Part shown: positions 28,649-53,900 of the stretch, in pieces | How the letters are laid out: each line of letters opens with the position of its first letter | Position numbering within the stretch: position 1 is the stretch's first letter | Assembly: GCA_965209065.1 (NCBI GenBank) | Contig: OZ242373.1 | Location: 646,202-710,201, forward strand | DNA: 64,000 bases | Direction of reading: 5' to 3' | DNA from: Alphaproteobacteria bacterium | GTDB taxonomy: Bacteria; Pseudomonadota; Alphaproteobacteria; JAPOUT01; G958296285 | The notes under the pieces: model-generated | Told to the model about the DNA's origin: nothing | Database searches by the model: none | What the model saw: the letters and a program-made list of their open reading frames with translations, nothing else | Translations under genes and position numbers: made by a program

Positions 28649-28650
28649 CA

Positions 28651-29172: not shown

Positions 29173-29313
29173 GAAAAACTAAAAACCTTACAAGATGCCC
29201 AGTATCTCCATGTCTAACAGCCTTGAAAATATAGCCTGAGTTGATTGCCTCTTGACAGAATGAAAAAAGCCCCTATCCTTACCCTTTAGGAATTTTTACC
29301 ACTCGGAGGAAAT

Positions 29314-30060
29314 ATGAGAAATATCAGCGGCGAAACTATTATCATTACTGGTGCCTCTTCCGGCTTTGGCGCCGAAACTGCACGAATGCTCGTCAAGGAC
29401 AAGGGCGCGAATGTCGTCTTGGGTGCTCGGCGCGCCGAAAAACTTCAGGAGCTCATCAAGGAACTCGGCGCGGATAAGGCTATCGCCAAGCCGTGCGATG
29501 TCCGCAAGTGTGATGACCTCAAGGCTCTCGCCGCCGCTGGTGTCGAGAAGTTCGGCACCATCGATGGTCTCGTCAATAACGCCGGGATTATGCCTCTGTC
29601 TATGCTCGCCGCCGGGCGCACCGACGAGTGGGACGATATGATAGACACCAACATCAAGGGCGTGCTTTATGCCATCAATGCCGTGCTGCCCATAATGATA
29701 AAAAATGAGAAGGGCTCGATTGTCAATATCTCTTCGGTTGCGGGCAGACGCGTTAGCCCCGCGGCGGCGGTCTATTCGGGGACGAAGTTCGCGGTGCACG
29801 CCATCTCTGAGGGATTGCGCCAAGAGGTCGCGCCCCATAAGATTCAAGTTTGTTGTGTTTATCCCGGCGCCTTCCAAACCGAGCTTGCTGGCTCTATCAA
29901 GGACGACAAGGTGCTGGAGATGGTGCGGAAAAGATTTAGTGGCGCGGGTGCTATCGGCGATGCGAAGCACATCGCGAATGCGATTGTGTTTGCTTTGAGT
30001 CAAGACCCATCGGTAGCGGTGAACGAGCTGATGCTGCGCCCTGTCGCACAAGATATGTAG
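29314..30060 (+). CDS. Short-chain dehydrogenase/reductase (SDR) family oxidoreductase
   Basis: 248 aa. TGASSGFGAETAR (TGxxxGxG), NNAG, and the catalytic YSGTKFAV (YxxxK). High GC, in contrast to the flanking AT-rich genes. Confidence 0.85.
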   Translation: MRNISGETIIITGASSGFGAETARMLVKDKGANVVLGARRAEKLQELIKELGADKAIAKPCDVRKCDDLKALAAAGVEKFGTIDGLVNNAGIMPLSMLAAGRTDEWDDMIDTNIKGVLYAINAVLPIMIKNEKGSIVNISSVAGRRVSPAAAVYSGTKFAVHAISEGLRQEVAPHKIQVCCVYPGAFQTELAGSIKDDKVLEMVRKRFSGAGAIGDAKHIANAIVFALSQDPSVAVNELMLRPVAQDM

Positions 30061-30155
30061 CACCACAGCGAGACCTTAAAAGATATATCAGGCACGGAAA
30101 TATGGTGCCTGCTTGCCAATAGCTTGACTGACTTTTAATTTTAGTTCATTATTTA

Positions 30156-31910
30156 ATGCAATTCAATCAAACACAAGGGGGAAAGTGTATGCCATCACCT
30201 GAAATCGAAAGCGGAAAAATATTGGTAAAGAAAATTTTCTCTGAACTATGGTTTCGCATCCCAGAATACCAACGCCCATACGTCTGGGGAAATGATGAAG
30301 TAAATAATTTGCTAGACGACATTTCCTATGCTATGCAAGGTGCGTCTGATTCTGAATACTTTTTGGGTTCCTTCGTTTATCAAACTAAACCACCTAATCC
30401 TGCTGCTAATATTCCATTTCAGGAGTATGATTTGCTAGATGGGCAGCAACGCATGATCACGCTTTTGTTGTTATTCTCTGTTATAAGGGATTTGACAAAA
30501 GATGAAGACGACAAAAAAGAATGTCAAAAGTGTATTTTTGTAGAAGCTGAACCTAGACGCAAGATTCCCGAGCGCTCTCGGATTACTTTTGGCATTCGCC
30601 AAGGCGCACAGAATTTTATTGAAACCCTAGTGAAGGAAAAAGGTTTTACCTTAAACAATGAATCACTAATGGACTATGAAAAATCAGGCAATGATACCAG
30701 CATCCAAAATATGGCTAAGGCTATTGGTTATATCAAAAAATTCTTTGCCAATAATACAAATATCAAATTTAATAAACTATTAGAATTTATTTTAAATAAA
30801 GTTTTACTGATCTATGTTTCTACCGAAAATCTAGATGATGCATTTCGGTTATTTACCATATTGAATGCTCGCGGCGTCTCCCTGCGTAATAGCGACATCT
30901 TGAAATCTATCAACCTTGGAGCTTTAACTACTGAGAAAGATAAAGAGAAATATGCTAAGCTTTGGGAAGATGCGGAAAGTGAATTAGGTGAAGAATTTGA
31001 CCGCTTCCTCCATTTCATTCGCACACTATTGGTAAAAGAAAAATCTCGCCTTAGCCTGTTGCAAGAGTTTGAAAATAAAATCTACAAACCTAAAAGCGCA
31101 GGGCAAAAGAAGCCATTACTAGCTAAAGGAAAAGCAACCTTCGAAATGGTGGATAAGCACTTAAAGCTATACCAGAAATTGTTCAATGATTCAAACTACG
31201 ATCTAACCAAAAGTTTTGAATTTGATAATCTTCTCAAAGTGATGAGAATTGGGATACCTTCTTCCGACTGGATTCCGCCATTGCTACATTATTACAATAA
31301 GTTTGGAAAAACGCGCCTCTATAATTTCTTGCAAATACTCGATAACAAGTTTTCAACAGATTGGATTATACGAGAAACACCAACGGCACGTACTGAGGCA
31401 ATGAATGCTGTTATCAAGGCTATTGACAAAAGTAAGACTGCCAATGATGTGTTCTATTCAAAAGACCTGAATATAATAGATTACGATGAGTTACAGCAAA
31501 CGCTAGAAAGCAAAATATATGGCAAGCCATTTGCTCGCTATATCCTTTTGAAGTTGGATTATCATTTCCGAAGCCATGATCAAAAAATGAACTTTGAGAC
31601 CTTATCCGTTGAGCATATACTTCCGCAAACTCCCAAATCAAGCAGTCAGTGGGTGAAAGATTTTAGTGAAGATGAAAGACTTGAGCTAACAAATACACTT
31701 GGTAATCTTGTATTGATTACACGTCGCAAAAACACATCTCAGGGGCGGCTTGATTACACGGAAAAGAAAAAACGCTATTTCGAGAAAAATATAGACACAT
31801 GCCCAAATTCTTTACGAGTTTTGCAAAAATACAACCAATGGACGCCTAAACAACTAAAAGAAAACCATAAGCTTGTTATCAAAAAACTCATGAAGTATTA
31901 TCCTCGCTAA
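30156..31910 (+). CDS. DUF262/DUF1524 two-domain protein (GmrSD-like type IV modification-dependent restriction enzyme family)
   Basis: 584 aa, AT-rich. N-terminal ParB/DUF262 motif (IPEYQRPYVWGNDEV; DGQQR). C-terminal DUF1524 His-Me finger-like region (SVEHILPQTP ... LGNLVLITRRKNTSQG). Confidence 0.7.
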   Translation: MQFNQTQGGKCMPSPEIESGKILVKKIFSELWFRIPEYQRPYVWGNDEVNNLLDDISYAMQGASDSEYFLGSFVYQTKPPNPAANIPFQEYDLLDGQQRMITLLLLFSVIRDLTKDEDDKKECQKCIFVEAEPRRKIPERSRITFGIRQGAQNFIETLVKEKGFTLNNESLMDYEKSGNDTSIQNMAKAIGYIKKFFANNTNIKFNKLLEFILNKVLLIYVSTENLDDAFRLFTILNARGVSLRNSDILKSINLGALTTEKDKEKYAKLWEDAESELGEEFDRFLHFIRTLLVKEKSRLSLLQEFENKIYKPKSAGQKKPLLAKGKATFEMVDKHLKLYQKLFNDSNYDLTKSFEFDNLLKVMRIGIPSSDWIPPLLHYYNKFGKTRLYNFLQILDNKFSTDWIIRETPTARTEAMNAVIKAIDKSKTANDVFYSKDLNIIDYDELQQTLESKIYGKPFARYILLKLDYHFRSHDQKMNFETLSVEHILPQTPKSSSQWVKDFSEDERLELTNTLGNLVLITRRKNTSQGRLDYTEKKKRYFEKNIDTCPNSLRVLQKYNQWTPKQLKENHKLVIKKLMKYYPR

Positions 31911-36529: not shown

Positions 36530-39500
36530 CTAGCTACCTTCATTAGAGGGGGCAGCAAAACTAGGAGATCTTTGCCTTAAAACCAATCGATGCCCAGAAG
36601 GTAGCAAAACCATGCTGTAGGTGAAGTCAATATCGCTACCCAAAATGCGTAGCGTATCTTGTATATCAAGCAGACCATTGGAATTTAACACGATAAACCC
36701 TTCCCCTCTATCAAGCGCGCCTCTCAAAACAATATTGCCACTTGCGCTTAGGTTGATGTTGCCATTAACGCGCGCGGCGTATTTTTGCTCGAAGATGAGG
36801 TTTTTACCTTTCCCCAAGGCTTTGATAACAAACCCCTCGTCCGATTCTGGCGTGATGATGCTACCGCCCGCGCGCAACGCGATATGGCTACCTAAAACTA
36901 AATTTGTATCGAGGTGAATATCATTTTCGGCATTGAGCATTAAATTATGACTACTTGCGCCCTCTGCCGTCTCCTCTTCATTGACGAGGGTGCGATAAAT
37001 GATTCTATTCGCTTTAATTTCTACATCTTTTTCGTTTTCACTCTCTGCCCTTTCCAAGTTTATTTTTTCTCCTGCCTGTAAAACAAGGGTAGCCAAGCCA
37101 ATATTCAAGCTGCCGCGCAAGTAGATATTATTGTGTGCCAATAAACTAACATTTTGATAATTCTTTTCGGGTTGGTTTTCAGCATAAATGTGAATGTTTG
37201 CCGCAAGAATATTTACAGCTTTCTGCACAGAAAAGCTAAGAGAAGCCGAGTCAATGACAAAGTTATAATTGGATGTAACGTCAATATCTAACACTATAGA
37301 TTCTCTAGCCTCAAGTGTTAGGTGGCTTGTTAATTGCTTTAGACTATCAGCTGAGATGAGTCTTCTACCCCTCAGCGTGATGCGTCTTGCCTTTATCACA
37401 ATGCCTCGCTCCGTCAAAGCGATAGGTAAAATAATATCGCCACTTGTAATTAGCGTTAGCGCGTTATCGCCTATATCAAAAACACCATTTGTGAAATCAA
37501 AGCCTTGATGGTTTTCGCCAAACGCTTGTAAATCTAACAAGGTAATATCCTTGCTGCCATTTAATACAAAAAGCTGGCGCCCCCAATCCACGCGGTATTC
37601 AACTTCAATGCCTGTATAAATAAGCAAGGGGATAACATCAATGCTGTTATCACCCGAGCGGAAGGTGGCAGGTTTCTTACGCGGGAACAAGCCACCATTT
37701 TGTTCTAAACGATAATCGCCCGCTCTAAAGCTAGGGGTGGCAATAAAACGAATAACACCCAAGCCTCTTTTGTCGCCAGCATAAAACAGCGCGTTGCCAT
37801 CGCCAATAAAGAAGCTACCTTCTAACTCTATATCGCCCCTTGCCCGAATAATTAAGTTGCGATCACTCGGAATTTGCTGTCTGTTTGGCGACATAAGCGA
37901 AACATTGCCCCCGGTGATGATGGTAGCTCTCGTGTCTGCGAAGCTAATAAAACTGGTTGTTGTTAAAGTAATATCCCTTCGCCCGGCATCTAAAGAAGGT
38001 CCTAGATGAAGGGAATAAGCGAAAACGAAAGTATTGCTTCTAAATATCATGTTGTTTCCGGCAGACAGGGTCGTTACACCTAAATTGATAACCGTGTTGC
38101 CTGCTTTGTTCTCAAAAACCAAATCGTTTGTAGCGACGATAGAAACACTTTCATCTTTTATGTTTGTGATATCTTCATCTTTTGTGTTTGTTGTAAAGCG
38201 GATGTTTGTTGCGCCGAGTTGTGTGATTTCCTGAAAAATAATATTCTGCGCGTTTAAGGTTAAATCGCCTTCGCCGAACAACATAAACCCGCCTAAGGAA
38301 AGTTCCTCTGCTGCGATGAACTCAGCATTTTGATTATTGACGGCTAGAAAGCTAGTTGATATTAGCGTGATATTGTTCGCAACAAATCTTGTTGGGGAGG
38401 TTTTGTCAAAATTGATAGCACCTTCTTGCGTGTGCAAGGTGAAATCACCTGTTCCTAAATCCATAGACGCGGGCGCGTTAATGTTCGATTGAGTAGTCGT
38501 AATGCTTAAACTTTTATCTCGCGCGATAGCCCAATTCGGGATAACAAAATCCGTTTCACCCGTCAGTGTTAAGGAGAGAGCATTGCGGGTCAAAGAGAAG
38601 TCTCCAAGGACAAAGAGCTCAGGCGCGGTGAGCGACAAATTGCCTGCGCCGATATCGAGGGCAGACGGCAGAACAAGCTTAGTAATCAGCGCGGTAACCG
38701 ACAGGTTTTTATCTTGCTCGATTGCCCAATCGGGAATAGTCGCCGACGTGCTGCTCCACGTTATAGATAGGTCGCCTCTTATAAAGTGCGCTTTATAGTC
38801 AATGAACTGCGCTTCTAGCGACAAAGCCCCTGTGCCTATACTAAAATCGCCTGAAAGTAATAAAACGCTCGCCGATAGCAAATGGAGGTTTTGATTGCTT
38901 GCCCTATGGATTGCGTTCGCTATTAGCGTAATGCTGCTTGCGCTTATTTTGGTTGGAGCGCTATTGTCGAAATTGATGCCTCCCAGCTTTGCCTCTAAAA
39001 CCAGATTACCCGAGCCTATAAGAAATCTATTAGGAACGGAAATGCTCGCCTCGCGCGCGGTGATGGTTAAATCCTTCCCTTCTTCTATCGCCCAGCTAGG
39101 AACAGGCGCCTCACCTCCCCTCCACAGAATAAATAAGCCCCTTCTTATAAACGCGAAATCATTTTGCGTTGTAATGCTATCTCCTTTGAGGTCCAAATCA
39201 CCCGTGCCGAAGTTGAATTTTCCTGACAGAGTCATTCTAGTAGAAACATCTATCGTTGCTTTTTGGTTGCTCGCGCGTGGTTGCGTCTTGCTCTTTAGGG
39301 TAATGCTTCTGCCCGAAAGGTTGGTTGAAGTGCTACTATCAAAAGCGAGCGCAGCGGTAATCGCATCTAAGGTTAAATCACCTAAACCCAAAGCAAGAGA
39401 AGTGGGAACAGAGATGTCAGCTTTGGTTGCTTGAACTATTAAATTTTTATCTTCCACTACCGCCCAGTCTGGCACTGATGCGGAATCCCCTATCCATATC

Positions 39501-42500: not shown

Positions 42501-45500
42501 ATTGAGGCAGCACTTAAATTAAGTGCACCACTGCTTCCATTCAAAGCAAAGTGTCCGCTTAAAGAAATATCTTCAAGCGCGGTAAGAGTGAGTGTCTCCA
42601 AAGCAACATAAGCGAACGCCATTGCAGAATGCAACGTGATGTTATTCGCGCTGAAGTTCGTATTATTGCTGTAATTTATGCTACCCCCTTGAGCGTTAAG
42701 CTTCAAATTGCCCGCGCCAAGCGTAATCGTGCGCGGCGGCGTAATACTAGCGGTTTGCGCTGTGAAAGACAGGTCCTTATCTGTTTCAATAACCCAGTTA
42801 GGCAAGGCAATATCTAAGGTGCCGGTGTAAGTGATGTCAAAAATTGCGGTATTAAAACTTGGGTTGCCCGAGAAAGATTGAGCGGTGACGAACAAAGTGC
42901 CGGTGCCAATATCATAGTTGCCCGCGAGGGTTAGCAGCCCTGATGAAACCAACAGAGTAAGGTTTTTATTGCTCGGCGTAGTGGGGGCGCCTGCTGCCGA
43001 AGAGATGGAGAGATTTCCTGCCACGCTAATAGAAGAGTTTGCTGTGCTAGAAAAAGCCATTGGCTGGGCGGTGGAGGTGAAGGAGAGACCATCTAATCCA
43101 TTTATGGAGCCATGGACGCTTACCGCGCGCGCGGTAACAACGCTTGAGCGAGTAAAGGTAGCTATCGCACTGCCGTTAAGCGCAATGCTAAACTGCGCGC
43201 CTGAGGTTGGCGTTCTATTGGTTAAGTTTATTTGCGGTATGGTTAAGATGATACTATTGTTTGCGGTCAAAGACAAAGAAGCGTTTGGCACGGTAGAAGA
43301 GTTGCGCAGAGAATTGGCTATCTTCGTCAAAGTGATAGAAATAGAATTAGCCGTTAAAGATACATTTTCTTTTATGAGTTCAACATCTAAAGCTGAAATA
43401 GTAAAACTAGCGTTTTCAAAAATGACATCACTAAAGTTAAAGCTGACATTCTTTTCAAACGCATTGATGGTTAAACTTCTACCATTTTGGAATACGCTCT
43501 CTCTTAAATTGAGTTCGCCCGTTTCCAAATAGTTTAGAGTAAGATGAGAGGTAGATAAACTCGTTGGAAATGTAATAGCCACACTTTCTAAAGTGATGGC
43601 GGCAACATTGAGATTACCACTAAGCGTGACGCTCTGTGTGCCGACAACCATAACATTGAGCCCGCGTTCGGCTTGGCTCGGCGCTCTCGCCGATGTTAAT
43701 GAAACAATATTTCCTGTTAAAGTAACATCTGCGCTTTTTGAGAAGAGAATTTTACCTAAAGCCTGCGTTTTTAGTGTTAGGTCATATTCACCGAGTGAGA
43801 TATCGCTAGTAACCTTGATATCACCTTGCGAGGACAAAGATAAATCACCCATCATTATCTCTATGCTGTTGAGAGTAACAACGGTGCGTGTTTCTATTGT
43901 TATGTTCGTGTTGATTGGGGTTGTGTCATCGCTGGCATAAGCCGAGAGGGAAAACGCATTAACCTTGAGAACGACGCCCCTTTTCACAGCTCCATCTAAA
44001 CTTAAAGAGTAAGTTTGTATGGAGTTGGTTCTTGCTGAGCTAATTGTTGTTAGTCCCCTATCGTATTGTGATGTCCCTGCTCCGCCAACAGAAATTCTAG
44101 CCCCTGACGACACGGTCAAGGAAATTTCTGTCGCGCTCTTTGTGATGGGGGGTGTCGAAGAGGAATAACCAAAATGATAATAGGTAAAAGAAAAAGTATT
44201 CGCTCTTATCTCAGAGCTGGCTGACGGGGTAGACAATCTCAAAGCAGAAATTTCAAGCGTTCCTGTGCCAATATCAATAATCCCATCTACAACGAGCGCA
44301 CCGGCATTAACAGAAAGATTTTTATTGCTAGCCGTAATAACCGTGCCTTCAGGCGCTGTAGAAGTAAGTTTAATAGTCTCATTCGCAGTTAAAGAGACAT
44401 GACTGCTTGTTGAAAAATTAATGAGGGTGCTTGCTTTTATTTCTAATAGCGCGTCAGCACTAAGATTGGCGTTCACATTGACAAACGCGCCTTCAAAAGT
44501 GAGGTCGGTAGTAGAGCTCGTTATCGGCACATCAATGGTGGCTATATTCGTTGCCACAAATTTACCTTCGTTCCCTTTCACACTCACGGAATTTGTTAGC
44601 CCATCGCCCGTAGCGCGCGCCGAGCGCTTTAGAGTAATATTCCCCGCGCTGAACGTTATTGTAGAATCCGTCTCTAATGGAAAATTGAGTGTTGCGTGCA
44701 ATGCTAACGTTAGCAAAGCGCCGGTAGCATTTATATTGTTGTTGATATTTAATATTGGCGAGTCTAACAACAGCGGAGACGAGGCTTGAAGAGAGCTACC
44801 AATTCTAATGCCATCGGTTCCAACAAGATTCAATGTTTTTCCTGCGGCAACGATATTTGTTATCCCTCCTGAGTTATTGGCAGTTGCTATGCCGTCGATA
44901 GTAAGCCACCTGCCCGTTAGGATTATATTTTCGCTTGTTGCTGATTGAATATTTATTGTTGAAGTGTTCTCTGCTCTTAAAGTGCCGGAAGAGGTTATGT
45001 TGCTAAATATATTTAAGCTAGGCGCTCTTAAAGTAAGCGAGCCACTTGTTTGATTGATAGTGTTATTGATGGTAACAGAAGCTGTTCCTCTAAAAATGGT
45101 TAGGACGCTATTGGAACTGCTTATGGTAGTGGTTGTTGCACCACTAAGGCTCATATTAGAGCCGCCTAGAATTATATGCTCGCTAGAAGAAGGCGCAGTG
45201 TTATTTAGCGCAGTGACATTGATTAGGGACAAACTACCGATGGAGGAGATATTTCTATTAGTGTTTAGAGTGGGCGTGTTCAAGGTGAGTGTGCCACTCG
45301 TTTGATTGATGGTGCTACTGGTGGTAATAGAAGTCGTCCCATTGAAAATAATTCCGCCGCCTCTGGTGCTAGTCATGGTAATCGTTTCCACATCACTGAT
45401 GCTCACATTAGAGCCTTCTAGGGTTACAGGTGCTGTGGTGGCTAAAGCATTGTTTAGCGTAGCGATGTTTTTTAGGGTTAAATTGCCACTGGTAATGATG

Positions 45501-47812
45501 CCGCTACCAGCGATGCTTAGCCTAGGCGTGTCTAAGGTGAGCGCGCCACTCGTTTGATTGATAGCACTATTGATAGGAATACTCCCTGCGCTCTTGAGCG
45601 TAACCGTGCCTGAGCCGGCAAGCGTAATCGTTTCCGCGCCACTAATGACTATCGCATCTGTACCCATTAGAGTAATTGCGTTATTAACTATTCCCGTTGG
45701 AAAATTTATGTTAGCAACATCGCTTATTATCAAAGCAGAGGCAACGGTGATGCTATTATCGATCCTGAGTGTTTGCGTGCTTAAAGTAAGCGTGCCGTTT
45801 GGTTGATTGATAGTGCTTCTGATAGTAATAGAATCCGTTCCGATAAAGGTGAGCGAACCACCACTAGAGGTCGTCAAGGTAGTGCTTGAGGTAGCGCTTG
45901 AACCACTAATGTCTATTGCCTCGCCCTCTAGAGTGATAGGAGGGCTATTGCCTCCTGTTGGGAAATTTATAGCGGCGGCATTGTTTAATCCCAGCCGATT
46001 GACGGAGGTGATGTCTTTGTTGATATTGAGTATTGGCGAATTTAAAACGAGTGAGCCACTCGTTTGATTGATAATGCTATTGCTAGTAAAAGAGCTTTCG
46101 CCAGAAAAAACGATCACAGCGTTATTATCGGTGCTTGTTACAGTAATTTTTGTTGCGCCATTGATGTTCATATTAGAGCCACCTAGAATTACAAACACAG
46201 TATCATCGGCAACTAAAGTGACGTTTAGCGTAGAGACATTATTTAAGGTTAAATCGCCGACTGTGGAGATGCCATGCGTAGTGAATGTTGGCGTATCTAA
46301 CACGAGCGAACCGCCTATTTTGAAAACATGAGTTGGAATGTCAATACGCTGTGTGCCCCTAAGCGTAACCTTGCTTGAGCCGTGCCAAAGGGCATTTTCC
46401 GTGTTAGTGATTTCTATCGACGGTGCCGTTAGAGTGATTATGCCGCTCGTTGGAAAATTTATGCTGTTAGCATTTCTTAGCGACAAGGAAATATTGGAAG
46501 TGATGTTATTATTTATATCGAGTCTTGGCGCGTTCAAAATGAGCCTGCCACTCGTTTGATTGATAATGCTATTGATTACAACAGAAGTCGTTCCTCTAAA
46601 AATGGTTGTCCCACGATTAGAATTCGTCATAGTAACCGTTGATGCGCCATTGAGAATCACCTTCGAACCTTGTAAGGTTATAAAGTTAGCGCCATTTAGC
46701 GTAGCGACATTAGTTAGGGTTAAATTACCACTGGTGGTGATGTTGCTATTGATATTAAGTGTTGGCGCATCTAAAGTAAGACCACCATTCGTTTTATTAA
46801 TAGAATTACTAACCGTTATAGAAGACCTTGCCCTTAATATGACATTGCCATTAAAATTTTTAATAGCACGAGGGGTAAAAGTAGCAACACTATAACCTGC
46901 ATCTTTTCTAACTTCACCGCCGCCATTTGTAATCAGACCATTACTACTGAGGATAGCAACTTTTATAAAAATAGCCTCTGGGTCAATTAAAAGTTCGCCT
47001 GCTTTAATGTCAGACAGATTAAAAGAAGCAAGAAATGTCTTACCTGATATTTCAACAAAGCCCCCATTGCTTTCTTGCGTGGCGTCTATTTTTCCCTCAA
47101 AAAAAGTAGAGCCGTCTGACCACACAATCACGCGCGGCGCGATAATGGAAGTGTTCGGCTCTATATGGGTTAATTGAGAATTGGTAATCTTCCCTTCCCC
47201 TTGATAATCACCACCAATTAAAACTTCTTCGCTTGCTCTTATATCGGCACCCGAACCACTCGTGGCAGCGATGCGCACTTCGTTCGCGCCCTCTACGATA
47301 ACTCTGCTCGCTTGAACCGCACCGCCAATATTGACAACATTCTCCTTGCCTAAACTTTGGAAATGAACTTTGCCTTGAGGCGAAGTAATCGAACCACGCG
47401 CAACAATATCTCCCGCGCGCGCCGAAGCAAGCAAGCCGCCCACATTCACCACCGAGCCTTCGTTAAAACGAATCCCCGCCGGGTTCTCTAACGAGACGCG
47501 TCCGTTCGCGGTAAGTGTGCCAGATATATTTGTTGTTGCATCATTGCGCACCTTAATAGAAATAAGCGATGAAGCTGATGGCTGTGTAATACGAACGACC
47601 TCGCCTTTAGCGATGTCAAAACTTTGCCAGCTTGTCGTTAGGGTGTCGCTATGTTGTTGAATGAGAAGCGGGTTCGATAGGTCGCCCGCGCCTGCGGTCA
47701 CACGCCCGCCACTCGGTGCGGCATGTAAGCCGACCGCTCCTAAAAGAGTTGCCAAACCTAAGGCAACAACGAATAATCGAGCAAAAAGTAAATAGCCCAT
47801 AAAAATATACAA
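36530..47812 (-). CDS. Giant TPS-domain secreted exoprotein (3760 aa), filamentous-haemagglutinin-like beta-helical repeat protein
   Basis: It has a signal peptide and a TPS domain (WQSFDIAKGEVVRITQP...ISGTLTANGRVSLENPAGIRFNEGSVVNVGGLLASARAGDIV). The rest is thousands of residues of G/T/S/N/L/I-rich beta-helix repeats, including a tandem array of about 180-aa units. Confidence 0.85.
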   Translation of the reverse strand: MYIFMGYLLFARLFVVALGLATLLGAVGLHAAPSGGRVTAGAGDLSNPLLIQQHSDTLTTSWQSFDIAKGEVVRITQPSASSLISIKVRNDATTNISGTLTANGRVSLENPAGIRFNEGSVVNVGGLLASARAGDIVARGSITSPQGKVHFQSLGKENVVNIGGAVQASRVIVEGANEVRIAATSGSGADIRASEEVLIGGDYQGEGKITNSQLTHIEPNTSIIAPRVIVWSDGSTFFEGKIDATQESNGGFVEISGKTFLASFNLSDIKAGELLIDPEAIFIKVAILSSNGLITNGGGEVRKDAGYSVATFTPRAIKNFNGNVILRARSSITVSNSINKTNGGLTLDAPTLNINSNITTSGNLTLTNVATLNGANFITLQGSKVILNGASTVTMTNSNRGTTIFRGTTSVVINSIINQTSGRLILNAPRLDINNNITSNISLSLRNANSINFPTSGIITLTAPSIEITNTENALWHGSSKVTLRGTQRIDIPTHVFKIGGSLVLDTPTFTTHGISTVGDLTLNNVSTLNVTLVADDTVFVILGGSNMNINGATKITVTSTDNNAVIVFSGESSFTSNSIINQTSGSLVLNSPILNINKDITSVNRLGLNNAAAINFPTGGNSPPITLEGEAIDISGSSATSSTTLTTSSGGSLTFIGTDSITIRSTINQPNGTLTLSTQTLRIDNSITVASALIISDVANINFPTGIVNNAITLMGTDAIVISGAETITLAGSGTVTLKSAGSIPINSAINQTSGALTLDTPRLSIAGSGIITSGNLTLKNIATLNNALATTAPVTLEGSNVSISDVETITMTSTRGGGIIFNGTTSITTSSTINQTSGTLTLNTPTLNTNRNISSIGSLSLINVTALNNTAPSSSEHIILGGSNMSLSGATTTTISSSNSVLTIFRGTASVTINNTINQTSGSLTLRAPSLNIFSNITSSGTLRAENTSTINIQSATSENIILTGRWLTIDGIATANNSGGITNIVAAGKTLNLVGTDGIRIGSSLQASSPLLLDSPILNINNNINATGALLTLALHATLNFPLETDSTITFSAGNITLKRSARATGDGLTNSVSVKGNEGKFVATNIATIDVPITSSTTDLTFEGAFVNVNANLSADALLEIKASTLINFSTSSHVSLTANETIKLTSTAPEGTVITASNKNLSVNAGALVVDGIIDIGTGTLEISALRLSTPSASSEIRANTFSFTYYHFGYSSSTPPITKSATEISLTVSSGARISVGGAGTSQYDRGLTTISSARTNSIQTYSLSLDGAVKRGVVLKVNAFSLSAYASDDTTPINTNITIETRTVVTLNSIEIMMGDLSLSSQGDIKVTSDISLGEYDLTLKTQALGKILFSKSADVTLTGNIVSLTSARAPSQAERGLNVMVVGTQSVTLSGNLNVAAITLESVAITFPTSLSTSHLTLNYLETGELNLRESVFQNGRSLTINAFEKNVSFNFSDVIFENASFTISALDVELIKENVSLTANSISITLTKIANSLRNSSTVPNASLSLTANNSIILTIPQINLTNRTPTSGAQFSIALNGSAIATFTRSSVVTARAVSVHGSINGLDGLSFTSTAQPMAFSSTANSSISVAGNLSISSAAGAPTTPSNKNLTLLVSSGLLTLAGNYDIGTGTLFVTAQSFSGNPSFNTAIFDITYTGTLDIALPNWVIETDKDLSFTAQTASITPPRTITLGAGNLKLNAQGGSINYSNNTNFSANNITLHSAMAFAYVALETLTLTALEDISLSGHFALNGSSGALNLSAASITSTATLTRNDLNITWTSTSASVPSWAVVENKNLSVSALTATLELPDSIDIGTGDLTLSATAMSGTPSITRGALTLIWTGTTASLPSWAVVANKDLVIQATSADISVPASLAMGSGSLTLDAVAGALVFASTSLSGGSITLKSKTQPRASDQAATIDATNITLSGKFNFGTGGLTLKASDITTQDDFALTRGGLFITWKGTSATIPAWAMVADKNLSVSALTATLTLPDSIDIGTGDLTLSATAMSGAPSITPNITRGLLTLIWTGTTASVPSWAIEANKNLSVSALTATLELPDSIDIGTGDLTLSATAMSGTPNITRGLLTLIWTGTTASVPSWAVEANKDLIVQATSADISVPASIVLGSGSLTLDAIAGALVFASTSLSGGNIILKSKTQPSASTQAATIDATNITLSGKFNLGTGGLTLKANSITTQDEFALTRGGLSITWKGASATIPNWAIVADKDLSVSALTATLELPDNINIGTGNLTLSATAMSGTPSITRGALTLIWTGTTASLPSWAVVANKDLVIQATSADISVPASLALGSGSLTLDAVAGALVFASVNLSGGSITLKSKTQPRASNQAATIDATNITLSGKFNLGTGGLTLKANSITTQDEFALTRGGLFITWKGTSATIPAWAMVADKNLSVSALTATLELPDSIDIGTGDLTLSATAMSGTPNITRGLLTLIWTGTTASVPSWAVEVDKDLIVQATSADISVPASVVLGSGSLTLDAVAGALVFASANLSGGNIILKSKTQPSTSAQDTSAQDTSAQETTIDATNITLSGKFNFGTGGLILKANSITTQDDFALTRGGLSITWKGNTAFIPSWAVVENKDLTIIAAKADISVPVSFSLGSGDLTLDAVVGALVFASVNLSGGSITLKSKTQPSTSNRDATIDALNTITLSGKFNFGTGDLTLKASDISTQDEFALTRGSLFITWKGASATIPAWAIVADKNLSVTALTATLELPANIDIGTGDLTLSATAMSGTPSITRELLTLIWIGDSASVPDWAVVEDKNLIVQATKADISVPTSLALGLGDLTLDAITAALAFDSSTSTNLSGRSITLKSKTQPRASNQKATIDVSTRMTLSGKFNFGTGDLDLKGDSITTQNDFAFIRRGLFILWRGGEAPVPSWAIEEGKDLTITAREASISVPNRFLIGSGNLVLEAKLGGINFDNSAPTKISASSITLIANAIHRASNQNLHLLSASVLLLSGDFSIGTGALSLEAQFIDYKAHFIRGDLSITWSSTSATIPDWAIEQDKNLSVTALITKLVLPSALDIGAGNLSLTAPELFVLGDFSLTRNALSLTLTGETDFVIPNWAIARDKSLSITTTQSNINAPASMDLGTGDFTLHTQEGAINFDKTSPTRFVANNITLISTSFLAVNNQNAEFIAAEELSLGGFMLFGEGDLTLNAQNIIFQEITQLGATNIRFTTNTKDEDITNIKDESVSIVATNDLVFENKAGNTVINLGVTTLSAGNNMIFRSNTFVFAYSLHLGPSLDAGRRDITLTTTSFISFADTRATIITGGNVSLMSPNRQQIPSDRNLIIRARGDIELEGSFFIGDGNALFYAGDKRGLGVIRFIATPSFRAGDYRLEQNGGLFPRKKPATFRSGDNSIDVIPLLIYTGIEVEYRVDWGRQLFVLNGSKDITLLDLQAFGENHQGFDFTNGVFDIGDNALTLITSGDIILPIALTERGIVIKARRITLRGRRLISADSLKQLTSHLTLEARESIVLDIDVTSNYNFVIDSASLSFSVQKAVNILAANIHIYAENQPEKNYQNVSLLAHNNIYLRGSLNIGLATLVLQAGEKINLERAESENEKDVEIKANRIIYRTLVNEEETAEGASSHNLMLNAENDIHLDTNLVLGSHIALRAGGSIITPESDEGFVIKALGKGKNLIFEQKYAARVNGNINLSASGNIVLRGALDRGEGFIVLNSNGLLDIQDTLRILGSDIDFTYSMVLLPSGHRLVLRQRSPSFAAPSNEGS
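38500..42620 (-). repeat. Tandem array of ~540-nt coding repeats (~7.5 copies, near-identical) inside the 3760-aa TPS gene
   Basis: Antisense-frame ORFs at 38895, 39531, 40386, 40920, 41478, 42210 translate to near-identical ~180-aa peptides. The sense protein shows a repeated unit ALTRGGLFITWKGTSATIPAWAMVADKNLSVSALTATLELPDSIDIGTGDLTLSATAMSG...KSKTQPRASNQAATIDATNITLSGKFNFGTGGLTLKA. Unit lengths are 534-558 nt, with one unit carrying a ~190-nt partial internal duplication. Confidence 0.85.
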
Positions 47813-47944: not shown

Positions 47945-50900
47945 TTAGGGGCAAATATTAGAATTGACAGAAAAGCACAAGCTATTTGTCAAAAAAGGCA
48001 TATCCATATCTGCTATGCTGCGCGCGCTCGCCAGCAAGGGCAATGTTATATCATGCCCGCCGAGCGCGGTAAGAAGCAACCTGCCATCAAAGGTATTACT
48101 TGTGATGCGCTCTACAAGCTCAAAGCCTATGAGCATAATGCTTTCTGAAATAAGCTCAACCGCCCTATTGTAATTTGTGCTCTGTCTTTGTTGTAGGAAT
48201 ATACTGCTCTCCTCTCCTCTCGCCTCGACACGATGGCTACCCGCGCCTCCTGTTGAAAAGAAAATAGTCCCACCGGCACGCAAGGTGATGCTGCCGTTAA
48301 TAACCAGATGATTAACAAGATGAATATCATTTGCAGCTTGTAAGGTGAAGCTATGGCTTGGGTCATTTTCATCATTGAACCTGCCGGCGCTATGGAATAT
48401 TCTATTGGCTCTAATTTCTACATCTCTCATTTCCTCGCCTGGAGAGGGGATTGATTTTATACGCCCACCGGCTTCTAGCCTTAAACTCGCAAGCCCTATA
48501 TTGAGCTGCCCTTGTAAAGAGATGTCTTGCTCACTTCTGAGAATAACATTTTGGTTATTGGCGATTGGCAACCCTCTTGAGTCGAAGTTTATATTGTTCG
48601 CTTCTATGAGGATAGGTTTGTAAAAAGAGAAGTTGATAGCGGCTGCCCTGATAGTAATATCATGTGTTGAGGTAATATCAGCATCAATTAGCACGTTGTG
48701 GGTTGCTTCAAGAATTAGATGGTTGATGACGTCGTCATTTGAGCTCGTTTTGATTCTCCTGCCTGACAAAACGATACTACTAGCTCTAATAACAAGGGGT
48801 CTATTTGTGTTTTCTATTCCTGTTAGGTCAATATCTCCGCTAGTGATTAAGATGAGAGGTATATCACCAAAATCAAACACGCCATCGGCGAAAGAAGCGC
48901 CAAAATATTCTTCACCGACCTCAAGCAAGGTCATTAAGTCAATGCCTTCATCGCCGGTGCGAACGATAAACTGATGCGCCCAATCCACCGCCGGCTGGAA
49001 TAGCTCTATGCCAGTATAAATAATAAGAGGTGAAATATCAATTTGATTATTCGCGAAGTAGAAATTGGCAGGCTTCTCGCTTGCAAAGAAGGCGCCATTT
49101 TGCTCTAACCTATACCGCTCAGCCGCGAAGCTTGGAGTTGAAACAAAGTTGATGACACCTAGCTTCCCATTATTTCCTGCAATAAGCCATACATCGCCCT
49201 CGCCTAAAAGGAAATACCCCTCTAGCGTGATGTTTCTATTTGCTCTTATGGTTAGGTTTCGGTTGCTGAAGGTTGCTTGCTCACTCGGCGAAACCAAAGA
49301 TATGCTCTCCCCCTCTATGACAGTATGCCTATCGTCAGCAAAAGTGATACCACCATTGGTTAAAGCAGTTAGGGTGAAGTTATTCTCGGCGGCTTTTATC
49401 ACGCCGCCGACATGTATCGTGGCAGCTGAGAAGGTAGCCGAAGTCTGAATTTCAATTTCGTTATCCGCGATAATCATCAAGCCATCTAGCTCTAGCGAAA
49501 AGAGCTTCTGTCTATCGTTAAAGGTCAAGTTATTGTCTGCGGTAATCTCTAGACTTGCGGTCGTGGGAGAGGAAACATCAATGTCTTTGCTATTCGTGTT
49601 GATGTAAATATCGTTCGCCACCAGCTTACTATTGCCGAGAATAAAGATACGCTCGGCATTGAGGGTAACATTACCTGTGCCAAAATCAAAACTACCCACC
49701 AGCGAAATGTTTTCTAATGCGGTCAAAATGAGCGTTTGGTTGCTTGGCGAGAGCCCATTATCATTGCTAGCCGTTAGGCTTATGCTTCTTGCCGAAATAG
49801 TGCCTGTGGCGGTGGTGGCAAAATTAATCACGCCCGCGCTATTGATGGTTAAAGCGCCATCACCAATTTCCAAAGAAGGCGGCAAGATGATGCCTGCTTG
49901 AAGCACGGTAACGGACATGTCTCCGTTCTCATCAATAGCCCATTGAGGAATGAAGGCTGTTTGGGCTCCGCTCCATGTGAAGGTGAGCGCGTTTCTGTTG
50001 AGGGTGGCGACGGTTGCGCCTACTCGGCCGGCGGATACAACTAAATTGCCTGTGCCGATATCAAACCTACCCCTTAAAGAGAGCGTTTCTATAGCGGTTA
50101 GGGTTAGGTCTTGATTGCTCGCCACGGGTTTCCTATTAGAGCCGAGGGTTATGTTTGCCGCGCTAATTTGGGTGGGGAAGTTCTTGCTAAAGCTGATAGC
50201 GCCCCCTATGCCCGACCTGACGGTTAAATTGCCGGTGCCAATATTGATATGCCCCTCAAGCAAGACAGAGCCTAGCGATGTGATAACAATGTTTTGATGA
50301 CTTGCCCGTTGTGATGCGCTTACAGAGGCTATCGTTAGATCGCCGACATTGACGATGGTTTCGGCTTGGGTATCGAAATTGACCGCACCCGCAAGCGCAC
50401 TGACGCGTAAATGACCTGCGCCTAGATTCACTATCGTCGGGAAGCTAATATCTGCGGTCTCAGCGATGATGCTAACACTACGATTTCTTATCATCATCCA
50501 GTTTGGGACAGCAAAGGGGTTCTGGGATTTCCATACGACTTCCAAAGAACCTAAAGTAATTACTGGGGAAACCAAAATAGAGCCAATGATGGGCGCGTTG
50601 AGAGTCAAATGCCCCGCGCCTATATTGATGTCTCTATCAACGGTAATGTTGGCGCTTTGCGAGACAATCACCAAATTACTATTCATTGCTATCATCCAAT
50701 CTTTGATGAAGAAATTTTCAATTCCATTCCAAATAATCGTAAGCGATCCCCTTTTTATGCCTGCCTCGACAACTGAAAACTCAGAAGTGGTTATAACGAT
50801 ATCCCCTACCCCTGTATCGAAATTGCCGGTGAGAGAGAGTGTATTTTCCGCTTCAATAATAAGATTGTGCTGGCTCCGCGCGGGGTTGCCGTTTGAGGTT

Positions 50901-53900
50901 AGCAGAATGTTGCTTGCGGTGAGCAAGGTTGCCCCCCTATTGTTGAAGTTGATTCCTCCTCGTTGAGCGGTCAAGGTCAAGGTAGCGTTGCCAATGTCAA
51001 TGGCGTTCGGGAGGTAAAGGTCAGCTAACTTCGCTATGATGGTTAAGTCTTTATTGCGACTAATAACCCAGTCAGGCACATCGAACACTTCGGGACCGGT
51101 GATGGTTATCTCAAGGCTATCCCTTAAAACGACCGGAAAGTTTAATGGCGTGTATAAAGAAAAGCCCGTTATGAATAAATCTCCTGTGCCGATGTTCAAC
51201 ACGCTAGGGATACCAACAAGAGCGTTTTCGGCGATGATGGTTAGGTTTTTATTCGTTGCTAGTGTCCATTGAGGAATGGTGAAGGTGGTTTCGCCTGTCC
51301 ATTTGAATGTGAGCGCATTGCGCGTTACGCTGTTTGCATCTGATATGGAAGGACCTTCAAGCCATAGGTTGCCCGTGCCGATGTCAATCGTAAGAGGCAG
51401 AATAAGCGGCGCTTGTTGAGAAATAACAGTTAAGTTTTTGTTTTGCACTATTGCCCATGCGGGAATAGAGGCGGTTGAACCCGTCCAAGTGATGTGGGTG
51501 TTGTTTCTAAAAAGAGTAGAGGAGTTCGTTAGGACTATATTTTGTCCTTCAAGCGTGATGTTGCCGGCAGGCGTGCCGCCGGTGGTGCGGAGATCAAAAT
51601 TACCATCAAGGGTGATATTTTCTATGGCAGTCAAGGTGAGGTCTTGATTGGTTTTGGTAGCAGGTCCCTTAGAAATAAGGGTTATACTTCTCGCCCTAAT
51701 GGTGGTTGAATCGTTTCCATCAAATATAATAGAGTGGCTACCAGAATTGACAGTAAACGAACCCGTGCCTAAATCAATAAAAAACGGCAAAATGATATTT
51801 GACTGAAGCGTAAAGGATGTATTTTGGTTTTTCTCCAAGAGCCAACCTAGAATTTGGAAATCATTTGGGTTGTTATAAATAAGCTCTATCCCACCTCGAA
51901 TAAAGTTGGGATTACCCACAATTAAGGTAGCGGTTATCTTTAATAGTCCCGTGCCAATATTATAATTACCATTTATGGTTAATGTCTCTAAGACCGTAAT
52001 CGTGAGCGCTTGGTTGCTTGAGAGGCGCGGCGTTCCGTTTGATGTCAAGGTTACTTCCCGCGCGGAGAGGGTGGTTGCGCCCTGAGAGTTAAAATTAATA
52101 GCCCCTGCTTGCGCTTCTATTACCACCGTGCCTGAACCAACATTAGCATTTCTAGGGATAAAAATGCCGCCTCGTGTAGCAATAATAGTCACATTTTTAT
52201 TTTCAAGGAAAGCCCATTGGTAAACATCAACCCTTCTTGCGTTCGTTAGCCTCATTATAAGGAAGTTTCTGTTAAAGCTCGTGGGAATAGTCGGCTGAGA
52301 TATAGAAAGAGCCGTGAGAGTAAGATTGCTCGTGCCAATATCAAATGCGCCATTTATTTTGGTTAAACCTGAAGTGGTTATGGTCAAATTTTGATTGCTC
52401 GCCACGGGGGCGCTACCCTGAGAAGTTAGCTCAACTCTTTTTGCCGTAATTACAGTTGCTCTATCATCTGCGAAGTTAATTGTATTCCTTGGACCTGAAA
52501 CCATTACCAAGACGCCGTCGGTAAAATCAAAACGCCCGCCAAACAAAATATCACCCCTTGCCCTAAGGGTGGCGTTTATGTTCACGAGGCTAGCGGCAGT
52601 GCCTGCCGAGAGGATAGTGATAGCATTCGCCTCTAATTCTATTGTGTTCCTACCGCTGTTAATAAATAGAACGCGTCCTACTTGCGCTTCAAACAGCAAG
52701 TTGCCTCCGCCAATATCTATATTATCCGACACGCTAATATCTGCGCTGACGGCTTTTACCGATAAATTCACATCTTCCACAACCGCCCAGCGTGGCGCGT
52801 AGGCGGTCGTCCCTGTCCATAGGAAAGTAATGCCGCGCAAGGTAATGCTGGTTGCTGTTCCGCTTATTGTTTCTGCGGTGATAAATAAATTGCCGTTTCC
52901 AATATCAATGGAGTCAGGTATTTGTAATGGGATTGCTTGCGCATCGACGTAGAGGTCGCTATTGACGGTCATTGCCCACTCGGGGATAGAAGCGGTCGTG
53001 CCCGTCCATGTTAGGAAAAGAGTCCCCCGCCTTATGATAGATGAACCGCTTGCGCTTGGAATAGAAAGTCTTAGCTCTCCATTGCCCATATTTACCAGTG
53101 CCGGCAGATCCAGCGTTGCGAAGAGCGAAGTGATGGATAAATTTTTATCTAATGCTATTGCCCAGTTTGGTATCGTAGCTGTAGTCCCTACCCAAGTAAT
53201 GTTTAAATCATTTCGCGTGAGGCTTGCGATGTTGGTAATTGAAGCAGCACTTAAATTAAGCACGCCACTGCTTCCATTCAAAGTAAGATGACCGCTTAGA
53301 GAAATTTTGTCGCTGGCGGTAAGGGTGAGTGTCGTAAAAGCAGTGTCAGCAAATACCGTTTGAGAATGTAAGGTGATGTTTTTGGCATTATAAACCGTGT
53401 TCTCGATATACTGTATGCGCCCTACTTGAGCGTTGATTTCTAAATTACCGTTTCCAATATCAATGAGGCGCGGCGGCGTGATATTAGCGGTGCGCGCGGT
53501 AAAAATGAAATTTACACCAAATTGAATAATCCACGGAGGCAAGACAGCATCTGCGGTGCCGGTATAAGTAATATCGAAAGTGGCAGCTTTGAAGCTTGGG
53601 TTGCCGATGAAGGCTTGAGCGGTGACGAACAAAGTGCCGGTGCCAATATCATAATTACCTAAGAGAGTTAGCGTCCGTGATGTGACCGACAGGGTAAGGT
53701 CTTGATTGCTCGGCGTGCTGGGTGTGCCTGCTGAATCGATGGAGAGGTCTTCTACCGTGTTAATAGAAGTGGGTATCGTGCTAGAAAAGGAGATTGGATC
53801 AACCGTGGAGATGAAGGAGAGATCATCTAATCCACTAATGGAGCCATTGAGGCTTATCGCGCGCGCGGTAATGACGGTTGAGCGGGCAAAGGTAGCTACC

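What the first reader, a model, noticed from the sequence alone, without database searches (positions are those of the whole stretch)
38500..42620. About 4 kb of near-perfect ~540-nt tandem repeats inside the 3760-aa gene
About 7.5 head-to-tail copies of a 534-558-nt unit encode ~180-aa beta-helix modules with over 90% identity. One unit carries a ~190-nt internal partial duplication, which is a sign of ongoing slipped-strand or unequal recombination.

Arrays like this change copy number readily, so adhesin length would vary. They also collapse in short-read assemblies.

The antisense frames produce a ladder of spurious 130-280-aa ORFs (39531, 40386, 40920, 41478, 42210), which should not be annotated.
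Basis: seen in the sequence. Interest (0 to 1): 0.7.

Follow-up and report, generated by a model that had tools for sequence, protein, structure and literature searches.

The report
Diverged module array in giant TpsA gene
The repeats are real but clearly diverged copies of a 182-residue beta-helix building block inside a giant secreted fibre protein. This is an ordinary feature of such proteins, and the number of copies was identical in all four related genomes compared.

Summary
A periodic array lies inside the 3760-aa gene (36530-47812, minus strand), but it is not "near-perfect". It has 16 modules across 38222-42850: 7 short (S, 62-66 aa) and 9 long (L, 120-130 aa). S+L = 182 aa = 546 nt. 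Whole units are 76-90% identical in DNA. Values of 93-94% occur only between copies 1092/1290 nt apart, which marks an older two-unit block duplication. The flanking modules are about 40-62% identical to the core modules.

The reported "190-nt partial duplication" is one extra S module. Two L-L junctions that lack an S were missed.

The gene encodes a TpsA-type (two-partner secretion) exoprotein with a signal peptide, a TPS domain and no cysteine. A structure model of three units is a beta-helix closest to HMW1, HxuA and EtpA.

Copies are under purifying selection (dN/dS 0.12-0.45), and the closest pairs differ by dS 0.12-0.21. Four haplotypes about 1% apart have the same module count. Only a 15-nt microrepeat (2/3/4 copies) and a 12-nt duplication vary in length. 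SNP patterns indicate gene conversion between modules.

The antisense ORFs are by-products of the sense sequence. The finding is an ordinary new member of a known kind.

The parts
36530..47812 (-). Gene for a 3760-aa TpsA-type (type Vb / two-partner secretion) exoprotein. It has a TTG start and no cysteine.
   Evidence: Single ORF. It is 100% identical to database protein P0001, called with the same start. Pfam TPS and TIGR01901 score above their cut-offs. Cys count is 0.
47720..47812 (-). Predicted Sec signal peptide (aa 1-31, ...LLGAVGLHA|AP).
   Evidence: Read from the translation. A hydrophobic core is followed by an A-x-A-like site. No signal-peptide predictor was run.
47018..47677 (-). 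TPS secretion domain (aa 46-265) with an NPAG motif at aa 110 and NPLL at aa 47.
   Evidence: PF05860 E 1.2e-13, 52 bits against a cut-off of 33.5. TIGR01901 54 bits against 29.1. Motifs.
44990..46822 (-). Older array of about 84-aa (252-nt) 'INQTSGxLTL' repeats in the N-terminal third of the shaft: 7 copies, 60-79% identical to the reference copy.
   Evidence: the repeat finder families D4 and D6; translation.
38222..42850 (-). The full S/L module array (aa 1655-3197), 16 modules in the order L0 S1 L1 S2 S3 L2 S4 L3 S5 L4 L5 S6 L6 L7 S7 L8. Each module is anchored on a [ILV]-P-x-W-[AV] motif.
   Evidence: Motif scan and module table. Alignments and identity matrices.
39149..42481 (-). Conserved core of the array (S1 to L6, 3333 nt). 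Modules of the same class are 70-94% identical in DNA. dN/dS between copies is 0.12-0.45.
40070..42295 (-). Higher-order duplication. Block L1-S2-(S3)-L2 (41192-42295) and block L3-S5-L4 (40070-41005) are 93.9% identical over 906 nt once S3 is left out. This explains the 1092- and 1290-nt lags.
41552..41935 (-). S3 joins the head type that normally follows an S module to an S body.
   Evidence: Lag-198 identity at 41513-41748. Module sequences.
39707..40459 (-). L4-L5 junction: two long modules with no S between them (module loss, or duplication of an L).
   Evidence: Spacings of 363 and 390 nt. Module table.
38783..39520 (-). L6-L7 junction: a second L-L pair without an S. L7 is already diverged (about 50% nt identity to the core L modules).
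40179..40228 (-). In-frame 15-nt microrepeat inside L4 that encodes (T-S-A-Q-D)n. It has 3 copies here, 4 in L001 and L002, and 2 in L084.
   Evidence: TRF. Haplotype alignments.
41751..41762 (-). 12-nt imperfect tandem duplication in S2 (APSI/TPNI). It is present in the window and L001 and absent in L002 and L084.
36533..38221 (-). Non-array C-terminal region (aa 3198-3760). It is conserved in paralogues and relatives and has no toxin or VENN motif.
   Evidence: phmmer against family members, for example P0002 at 800 bits and P0003 at 351 bits. No Pfam or NCBIfam family reached its cut-off. No VENN motif.
38895..42611 (+). Ladder of six antisense shadow ORFs (133-280 aa), all in one frame. 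The stops that bound them opposite the core array come once per L module, opposite the sense dipeptide [IV]-Q. They are not genes.

Best explanation
The array is a lineage-specific expansion of a composite 182-residue block, made of a short S module (62 aa) and a long L module (120 aa), within the beta-helical shaft of a giant TpsA-type exoprotein.

Shown:
- The protein has a signal peptide, a TPS domain and no cysteine.
- Three units are modelled as a right-handed beta-helix most like HMW1, HxuA and EtpA.
- S, the first half of L and, more loosely, the second half of L share one about 60-residue pattern (...IGTGxLTLxA).
- The array was built stepwise. Amplification came after the split from the neighbouring 3290-aa paralogue. 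A two-unit block was then duplicated (93.9% identity). One S was gained and there are two L-L junctions.
- All copies are kept under purifying selection in the sense frame.
- Between haplotypes, exchange continues as short gene-conversion tracts, while module number stays constant. Only a 15-nt and a 12-nt micro-repeat change length.

Inferred:
- After Sec export, the TPS domain is recognised by a TpsB transporter encoded elsewhere, and the chain folds outside the cell into a fibre.
- Each 182-aa unit adds about 9 coils of 20-22 residues, roughly 4 nm, and one more copy of the conserved P-x-W-A surface motif. The array would therefore set the reach and valency of an adhesin-like fibre.
For: - Gene and domains.
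- Module anatomy and identities.
- Selection: dN/dS 0.12-0.45, with dS 0.12-0.21 for the closest pairs.
- Timing: every core S module matches the same one or two S-like modules of the 3290-aa paralogue at 52-56%, while core S modules are 73-95% identical to each other.
- Stability: four haplotypes have identical module counts.
- Gene conversion, from the three haplotypes with the complete gene: SNP density is 19.8/kb in the core against 8.3/kb elsewhere. 46 of 66 minor alleles equal the base of a paralogous module, against 23% expected (binomial p 2.5e-15). SNPs form tight clusters, for example four SNPs in 7 nt of L1 that all match L6.
- Family: the unit profile finds only 56 proteins among 1.84 billion representatives. 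Most of the best-scoring hits are giant proteins with a matching TPS domain and 8-53 matched stretches, while many weaker hits are short fragments. Several carry their own recent internal duplications.
- Literature: TpsA proteins of 100-650 kDa generally carry long imperfect repeats that form beta-helices (PMC5422565). EtpA has functional C-terminal repeat modules (PMC11463764).
Against: - No TpsB gene lies in the 64-kb window or next to the related loci examined, so the secretion partner is unverified.
- The structure model was made from a single sequence. Foldseek against the PDB gave nothing significant.
- The gene-conversion test assumes random mutation as its null. Shared constraint at variable sites would inflate matches to paralogues. 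The excess does hold within each codon position, and the clustering of SNPs argues against this.
- Three of the four haplotypes come from a single ENA assembly (ERZ25069786), so the population sampled is narrow.
- The function (adhesion, reach, valency) is inferred from family resemblance only.
Confidence: 0.8

Rival explanations
1. Hypervariable contingency array. The 546-nt units slip or recombine often, so fibre length varies between cells and strains and serves as a phase- or antigenic-variation device.
For: - Exact repeats of 50-104 nt exist between copies. This is long enough for RecA-dependent recombination, on general knowledge.
- The array records past gains and losses of modules.
- Relatives carry from 2 to 53 matched stretches and have independent recent duplications.
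- Short repeats inside the array do vary in copy number.
Against: - Four haplotypes 0.7-1.0% apart have the same 16 modules in the same order.
- The closest copies differ by dS 0.12-0.21, and neighbouring units are only 85-86% identical. This should suppress unequal crossing-over.
- Copies are individually under purifying selection.
Confidence: 0.12
2. The repeated units are multivalent ligand-binding modules, like the C-terminal repeat modules of EtpA that together bind blood-group A glycans, rather than mere spacers. Selection would then act on the number and surface of the binding sites.
For: - Strongly conserved surface-type motifs recur in every module, including the [ILV]-P-x-W-A motif and IGTGxLTL.
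- There is purifying selection on each copy.
- Module number is conserved across haplotypes.
Against: - There is no sequence similarity to EtpA repeats or to any solved structure.
- No Pfam or NCBIfam family covers the unit.
- No ligand is known. The conserved residues could equally be core-packing positions of the helix.
Confidence: 0.3
3. Assembly artefact: the array length or order was produced by mis-assembly of repeats.
For: Repeats with a 0.55-kb period and exact stretches up to 104 nt can confuse small-k short-read assemblers.
Against: - The same module order and count are found in three other independently assembled contigs that differ by about 1% in sequence.
- Copies differ by at least 6%, so they can be told apart.
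- The reading frame stays open for 3760 codons.
Confidence: 0.02
4. The antisense ORFs (38895-42611, + strand) are real overlapping genes.
For: Six ORFs of 133-280 aa lie in one frame.
Against: - The number of stops and the ORF lengths are exactly what synonymous shuffles of the sense codons give: 14 stops observed against 14.8 +/- 2.8, and 61% of shuffles have an ORF at least as long.
- In this frame a stop needs a sense codon ending in T or C followed by a Tyr, His or Gln codon, and Tyr and His are rare here.
- The ORFs have no Pfam match.
- The ORFs are confined to the repeat.
Confidence: 0.02

Closest known systems
TpsA exoproteins of two-partner (type Vb) secretion: FHA/FhaB of Bordetella, HMW1 of Haemophilus, HxuA
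   Different: The repeat unit is not the 19-20-residue FHA repeat family, and no Fil_haemagg-type Pfam hit was found. Here the repeat is a composite 62+120-residue block with a P-x-W-A motif, found in only 56 of 1.84 billion representative proteins. No tpsB gene is adjacent. The genes sit in tandem clusters of two or three tpsA genes.
EtpA of enterotoxigenic E. coli (a TpsA adhesin with four C-terminal repeat modules)
   Different: No detectable sequence similarity. This array has 16 modules of two size classes rather than 4 repeats. No glycosyltransferase gene (etpC-like) or tpsB gene is nearby. The ligand is unknown.
CdiA contact-dependent inhibition toxins
   Same: A giant TpsA with a TPS domain and a repetitive beta-helical shaft.
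   Different: There is no VENN or (E/Q)LYN pre-toxin motif and no toxin or immunity gene. The C-terminal 560 residues are conserved among paralogues and relatives rather than polymorphic.
Surface proteins with variable-number large tandem repeats (for example alpha C/Rib of group B streptococci and the staphylococcal SasG/Aap repeats; recalled from general knowledge, not tested here)
   Same: In-frame repeats several hundred nucleotides long in a surface-protein gene. In principle they are open to unequal recombination.
   Different: Those arrays are nearly identical at the DNA level and vary in copy number between close isolates. Here the units are 76-90% identical and the count is fixed in four haplotypes.

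Membership tests
TpsA (type Vb secretion exoprotein) | N-terminal TPS secretion domain (PF05860 / TIGR01901) above the curated threshold | tested here: met
   PF05860 scores 52 bits against a cut-off of 33.5, at aa 46-265. TIGR01901 scores 54 bits against 29.1. An NPAG motif lies at aa 110.
TpsA (type Vb secretion exoprotein) | Sec signal peptide ahead of the TPS domain | tested here: met
   By inspection of the translation: a hydrophobic stretch aa 8-28 and the site LHA|AP. No dedicated predictor was available.
TpsA (type Vb secretion exoprotein) | Long repetitive passenger that folds as a right-handed beta-helix | tested here: met
TpsA (type Vb secretion exoprotein) | Cognate TpsB (Omp85-type, POTRA + ShlB) transporter gene, usually in the same operon | tested here: not met
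   No ORF in the 64-kb window has POTRA or ShlB domains. None is called next to related loci L001, L083, L085 or L086. The rest of the genome could not be searched. One TpsB can serve several TpsA proteins (PMC5422565).
TpsA (type Vb secretion exoprotein) | Demonstrated TpsB-dependent secretion | not testable with these tools
   This needs an experiment.
FHA-type haemagglutinin repeats (Pfam Fil_haemagg / Fil_haemagg_2) | Match of the shaft repeats to those Pfam repeat models | tested here: not met
   The only Pfam hit to reach its cut-off is the TPS domain. No haemagglutinin repeat family appears at E <= 0.01. There is no NCBIfam hit for the 556-aa array fragment.
CdiA / contact-dependent inhibition | Pre-toxin VENN (or (E/Q)LYN) motif followed by a variable C-terminal toxin and an immunity gene | tested here: not met
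   The motif is absent. The C-terminal region has no toxin family and is conserved across paralogues. The downstream gene is another TpsA.
Variable-number tandem repeat / contingency locus | Copy number differs among closely related genomes | tested here: not met
   For the 546-nt unit and its S/L modules, the count and order are identical in four haplotypes 0.7-1.0% apart. The criterion is met only by the nested 15-nt repeat, with 2, 3 or 4 copies.

The most novel reading that the evidence does not exclude
The array may work as a self-templated diversity generator. Modules would act as donors and acceptors for short intragenic gene-conversion tracts, and a hypervariable in-frame 15-nt repeat adds to this. 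Together they would produce mosaic surface variants of a fixed-length fibre. The setting would be a deep-branching alphaproteobacterium with a small genome, judging by its 1.69-Mb contig, that devotes several per cent of that genome to tandem clusters of giant TpsA genes with no adjacent TpsB. The module itself (P-x-W-A, 62+120 aa) belongs to no described family.
Probability: 0.2. Interest if true: 0.5.

Novelty: new member of a known kind. Interest (0 to 1): 0.25.

Why it matters
For annotation:
- The 3760-aa ORF is one real gene.
- The six antisense ORFs should not be called.
- The array is not an assembly artefact.

For biology, the locus is a clean example of a large-unit repeat array that looks unstable but is old and selectively maintained. 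Its copy number is fixed, and variation comes from gene conversion and a nested microrepeat instead. The S/L module is an undescribed repeat type, restricted to a small set of giant TpsA proteins, so it could be added to domain databases. None of this changes what is understood about two-partner secretion.

Tried and rejected
- TRF found only 15-nt repeats because its period limit is 500.
- The search for homologous proteins timed out on the whole protein. With a 364-aa repeat query it returned nothing, probably because the word index was saturated by low-complexity words. The exhaustive HMM search replaced it.
- The look-up of encoding contigs found no record for the window protein itself. 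Cluster members P0057, P0059 and P0003 gave the comparison loci instead.
- Scans of genome contigs and metagenome contigs with the unit profile, and a metagenome scan with the unique upstream segment, found no relatives.
- The RpoB scan gave only 66% identity or less, to assorted Alphaproteobacteria, so the organism could not be named.
- A profile search of solved-structure sequences found nothing.
- A self-BLASTP of family members returned no off-diagonal HSPs, for technical reasons. It was replaced by a diagonal scan.
- The apparent 127-aa length difference in paralogue cluster P0005/P0064 is an N-terminal truncation, not repeat variation.
- The region below coordinate 1230 was checked for a TpsB. 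It encodes a cytochrome-P450-like protein.
- Promoter and terminator scans showed nothing beyond chance.
Full report
**1. Observation**

The region lies inside one 11,283-nt ORF on the minus strand (36530-47812, 3760 aa, TTG start).

Self-comparison of 38000-43000 gives identity maxima at lags 546 and 1290 nt (0.405 and 0.404), then 744 nt (0.37). The repeat finder reports 6-8-copy families with spacings of 546, 558, 576, 363, 390, 198 and 744 nt. TRF missed the array only because its longest period is 500. It did find a nested 15-nt repeat at 40179-40228. The periodicity is therefore real and far beyond chance.

**2. Anatomy**

At the protein level, every repeat is anchored on an [ILV]-P-x-W-[AV] motif, which occurs 16 times between aa 1670 and 3091. 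Cutting 15 residues before each anchor gives 16 modules of two sizes:
- S modules are 62-66 aa.
- L modules are 120-130 aa.
- Their order is L0 S1 L1 S2 S3 L2 S4 L3 S5 L4 L5 S6 L6 L7 S7 L8, spanning window 38222-42850.

The array departs from a simple S-L alternation in three places:
- There is one extra S (S2-S3, 41552-41935).

The first 25 residues of each module (the "head") follow the type of the preceding module. S3 has the head that normally follows an S, and L5 has the head that normally follows an L. This is as expected if modules were gained and lost by unequal exchange between homologous heads or bodies.

S, the first half of L and, more loosely, the second half of L share one pattern of about 60 residues (...IGTGxLTLxA). 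The hierarchy is therefore about 60 aa, then 182 aa, then 364 aa.

**3. Similarity between copies**

DNA identities are as follows:
- Whole units are 76-90% identical.
- Neighbouring canonical units are 85-86% identical.
- Alternate units are 90% identical.
- The best module pairs (L1/L3 94%, L2/L4 93%, S2/S5 93%) lie 1092 or 1290 nt apart.
- Block L1-S2-L2 against block L3-S5-L4 is 93.9% identical over 906 nt. A two-unit block was therefore duplicated, and an S was gained later.
- The flanking modules L0, L7, L8 and S7 are about 40-62% identical to the core modules.

The longest exact repeat is 104 nt, and only 12 exact repeats reach 40 nt or more. "Near-perfect, over 90%" is therefore an overstatement.

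Nei-Gojobori estimates give dS 0.12-0.21 for the closest pairs. dN/dS is 0.12-0.45 between core copies and similar for all other measurable pairs. The copies are not recent, and each is under purifying selection in the sense frame.

**4. What the gene is**

The N-terminus carries a signal-peptide-like segment and a TPS secretion domain:
- PF05860 scores 52 bits against a cut-off of 33.5.
- TIGR01901 scores 54 bits against 29.1.
- There is an NPAG motif at aa 110.

The protein contains no cysteine.

The unit matches no Pfam or NCBIfam family and no sequence of a solved structure. There is no VENN or (E/Q)LYN motif. The C-terminal 560 residues are conserved in paralogues, so this is not a CdiA-type toxin.

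The reviewed properties of TpsA proteins are a size of 100-650 kDa, long imperfect repeats and beta-helix fibres (PMC5422565). This gene fits them. EtpA provides a precedent for large functional repeat modules (PMC11463764).

**5. Context**

Both neighbours on the same strand are also TPS-domain giants: 47945-57817 (3290 aa) and 32061-36527 (1488 aa). A 746-aa ORF at 1230-3470 has the same N-terminal domain.

No TpsB is present in the window. The three-gene cluster has tRNA-Pro and tRNA-Arg upstream of it. Downstream lie tRNA-Met and a low-GC defence islet.

RpoB is at most 66% identical to assorted Alphaproteobacteria. The protein sits on a 1.69-Mb contig.

**6. Timing of the expansion**

Every core S module finds its best match in the same one or two S-like modules of the 3290-aa paralogue, at 52-56% identity. 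L0 matches its positional counterpart at 62%. Core S modules are 73-95% identical to each other. The amplification therefore happened after the two genes diverged.

**7. Distribution**

A profile of six units was searched against 1.84 billion representative proteins. It finds only 56 proteins at E <= 1e-3 and 19 at E <= 1e-30. The best-scoring hits are giant proteins of up to 7821 aa with 8-53 matched stretches, while many weaker hits are short fragments. Most of the best-scoring hits carry a similar TPS domain.

Several relatives (P0002, P0004, P0006, P0008) have their own recent internal duplications, with other periods of 795-910 aa. Paralogues P0003, P0005 and P0007 have only old repeats. 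Over long time spans these shafts do expand and contract.

**8. Test of "copy number changes readily"**

The 90% cluster of the protein holds a 3765-aa member and a split 886+2875-aa member. Their contigs (L001 and L002), plus a fourth contig (L084) reached through the upstream paralogue, were fetched. Over the shared 9.9 kb of the gene, the four haplotypes differ at 71-102 sites, about 0.7-1.0%.

All four have exactly the same S/L modules in the same order. The only length differences are:
- the 15-nt TSAQD repeat, with 2, 3 or 4 copies;
- a 12-nt imperfect duplication in S2;
- a 1-nt deletion that splits the gene in L002.

This argues against frequent change in copy number and against an assembly artefact. 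The sampling is narrow, because three of the haplotypes come from one ENA assembly.

**9. What is ongoing**

This analysis used the three haplotypes that carry the complete gene (window, L001, L002).
- SNP density is 19.8/kb in the core array against 8.3/kb in the rest of the gene.
- For 46 of 66 core SNPs, the minor allele is the base found at the same position of another module in the same haplotype. Random mutation predicts 23% (p 2.5e-15).
- The excess holds within each codon position: third 33/47 against 0.37, second 8/9 against 0.14, first 5/10 against 0.19.
- SNPs come in tight clusters that match particular paralogous modules. For example, four changes within 7 nt of L1 all equal L6.

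This is the signature of short gene-conversion tracts. Shared constraint could inflate the statistic, but it does not explain the clustering. A similar hint exists between the TPS domains of the neighbouring genes.

**10. Antisense ORFs**

All six lie in the + frame whose third positions coincide with the sense third positions. A stop in that frame needs a sense codon ending in T or C followed by a Tyr, His or Gln codon.

Opposite the core array, the stops that bound the ladder come once per L module, opposite the dipeptide [IV]-Q of "DL[VI][IV]QATS". Tyr and His are rare in the array (0.3% and 0.4%).

In 1000 synonymous shuffles of the sense codons, the frame has 14.8 +/- 2.8 stops (14 observed) and a longest ORF of 368 +/- 119 codons (312 observed). 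The ORFs have no Pfam match. They are by-products of the sense sequence.

**11. Verdict**

It is the lineage-specific, selectively maintained shaft expansion of a giant TpsA-type exoprotein, built by past unequal recombination. It is now stable in copy number and exchanges sequence by gene conversion.

This is a new member of a known kind with an undescribed module type. Interest is low to moderate.

Noticed in passing
window 47945-57817 (-), 32061-36527 (-), 1230-3470 (-); loci L083, L085, L086: The window holds four TPS-domain genes, three of them in tandem, and no TpsB. Contigs from the same ENA assembly, probably the same or related organisms, carry further tandem clusters of giant TpsA-family genes: 4858+2868+2299 aa, 5753+3965 aa, and 7242+1097 aa. 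A sizeable share of a genome that appears small, judging by the 1.69-Mb contig, goes to this family.
   Followed up: partly
window 40179-40228: The in-frame 15-nt repeat encoding TSAQD inside module L4 has 2, 3 or 4 copies in four haplotypes that are otherwise about 99% identical. It is the only truly hypervariable repeat in the gene.
   Followed up: yes
window 41751-41762: A 12-nt imperfect tandem duplication (APSI/TPNI) in module S2 is polymorphic. It is present in the window and L001 and absent in L002 and L084.
   Followed up: yes
window 45163 (L002 gene position 2650): A 1-nt deletion (GG to G) in haplotype L002 splits the gene into 886-aa and 2875-aa ORFs. It is either a real inactivation in one strain or a sequencing error.
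   Followed up: partly
window 47246-47747: The TPS-domain region of the 3760-aa gene is 82% identical in DNA to that of the upstream 3290-aa gene. At several between-haplotype SNPs here, one of the two alleles matches the base in the paralogue, which hints at conversion between the genes.
   Followed up: partly
window 44990-46822: A separate, older array of about 252-nt (84-aa) 'INQTSGxLTL' repeats lies in the N-terminal third of the same gene: 7 copies, 60-79% identical to the reference copy.
   Followed up: no
window 36286-36320: A 15-nt tandem repeat (2.3 copies, encoding VPRDS/APRG) lies just after the predicted signal peptide of the 1488-aa TpsA gene.
   Followed up: no
window 36525-36532: The stop codon of the 3760-aa gene (36530-36532) and the first ATG of the 1488-aa ORF (36527) are 2 nt apart and in different frames. 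The signal-peptide-like segment begins about 46 codons further in, so the true start of the downstream gene may be later.
   Followed up: no
window 27437-31910: A low-GC (38-40%) islet lies between tRNA-Tyr/Gly and tRNA-Met. It holds an Eco57I-like methylase, a T5orf172 protein, a short-chain dehydrogenase (29314-30060 +, whose 256-aa minus-strand overlap 29296-30066 is a shadow ORF) and a GmrSD-type restriction enzyme. It is conserved in L001.
   Followed up: partly
window 32061-32900: The 1488-aa TpsA ends with a proline-rich linker followed by a cysteine-containing C-terminal region of about 200 aa with no Pfam match. This could be an effector domain.
   Followed up: no
window 18455-22561: RpoB is at most 66% identical to any of the 80 best hits, which are assorted Alphaproteobacteria. 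The organism looks like a deep-branching lineage with no close relative among the hits returned.
   Followed up: partly
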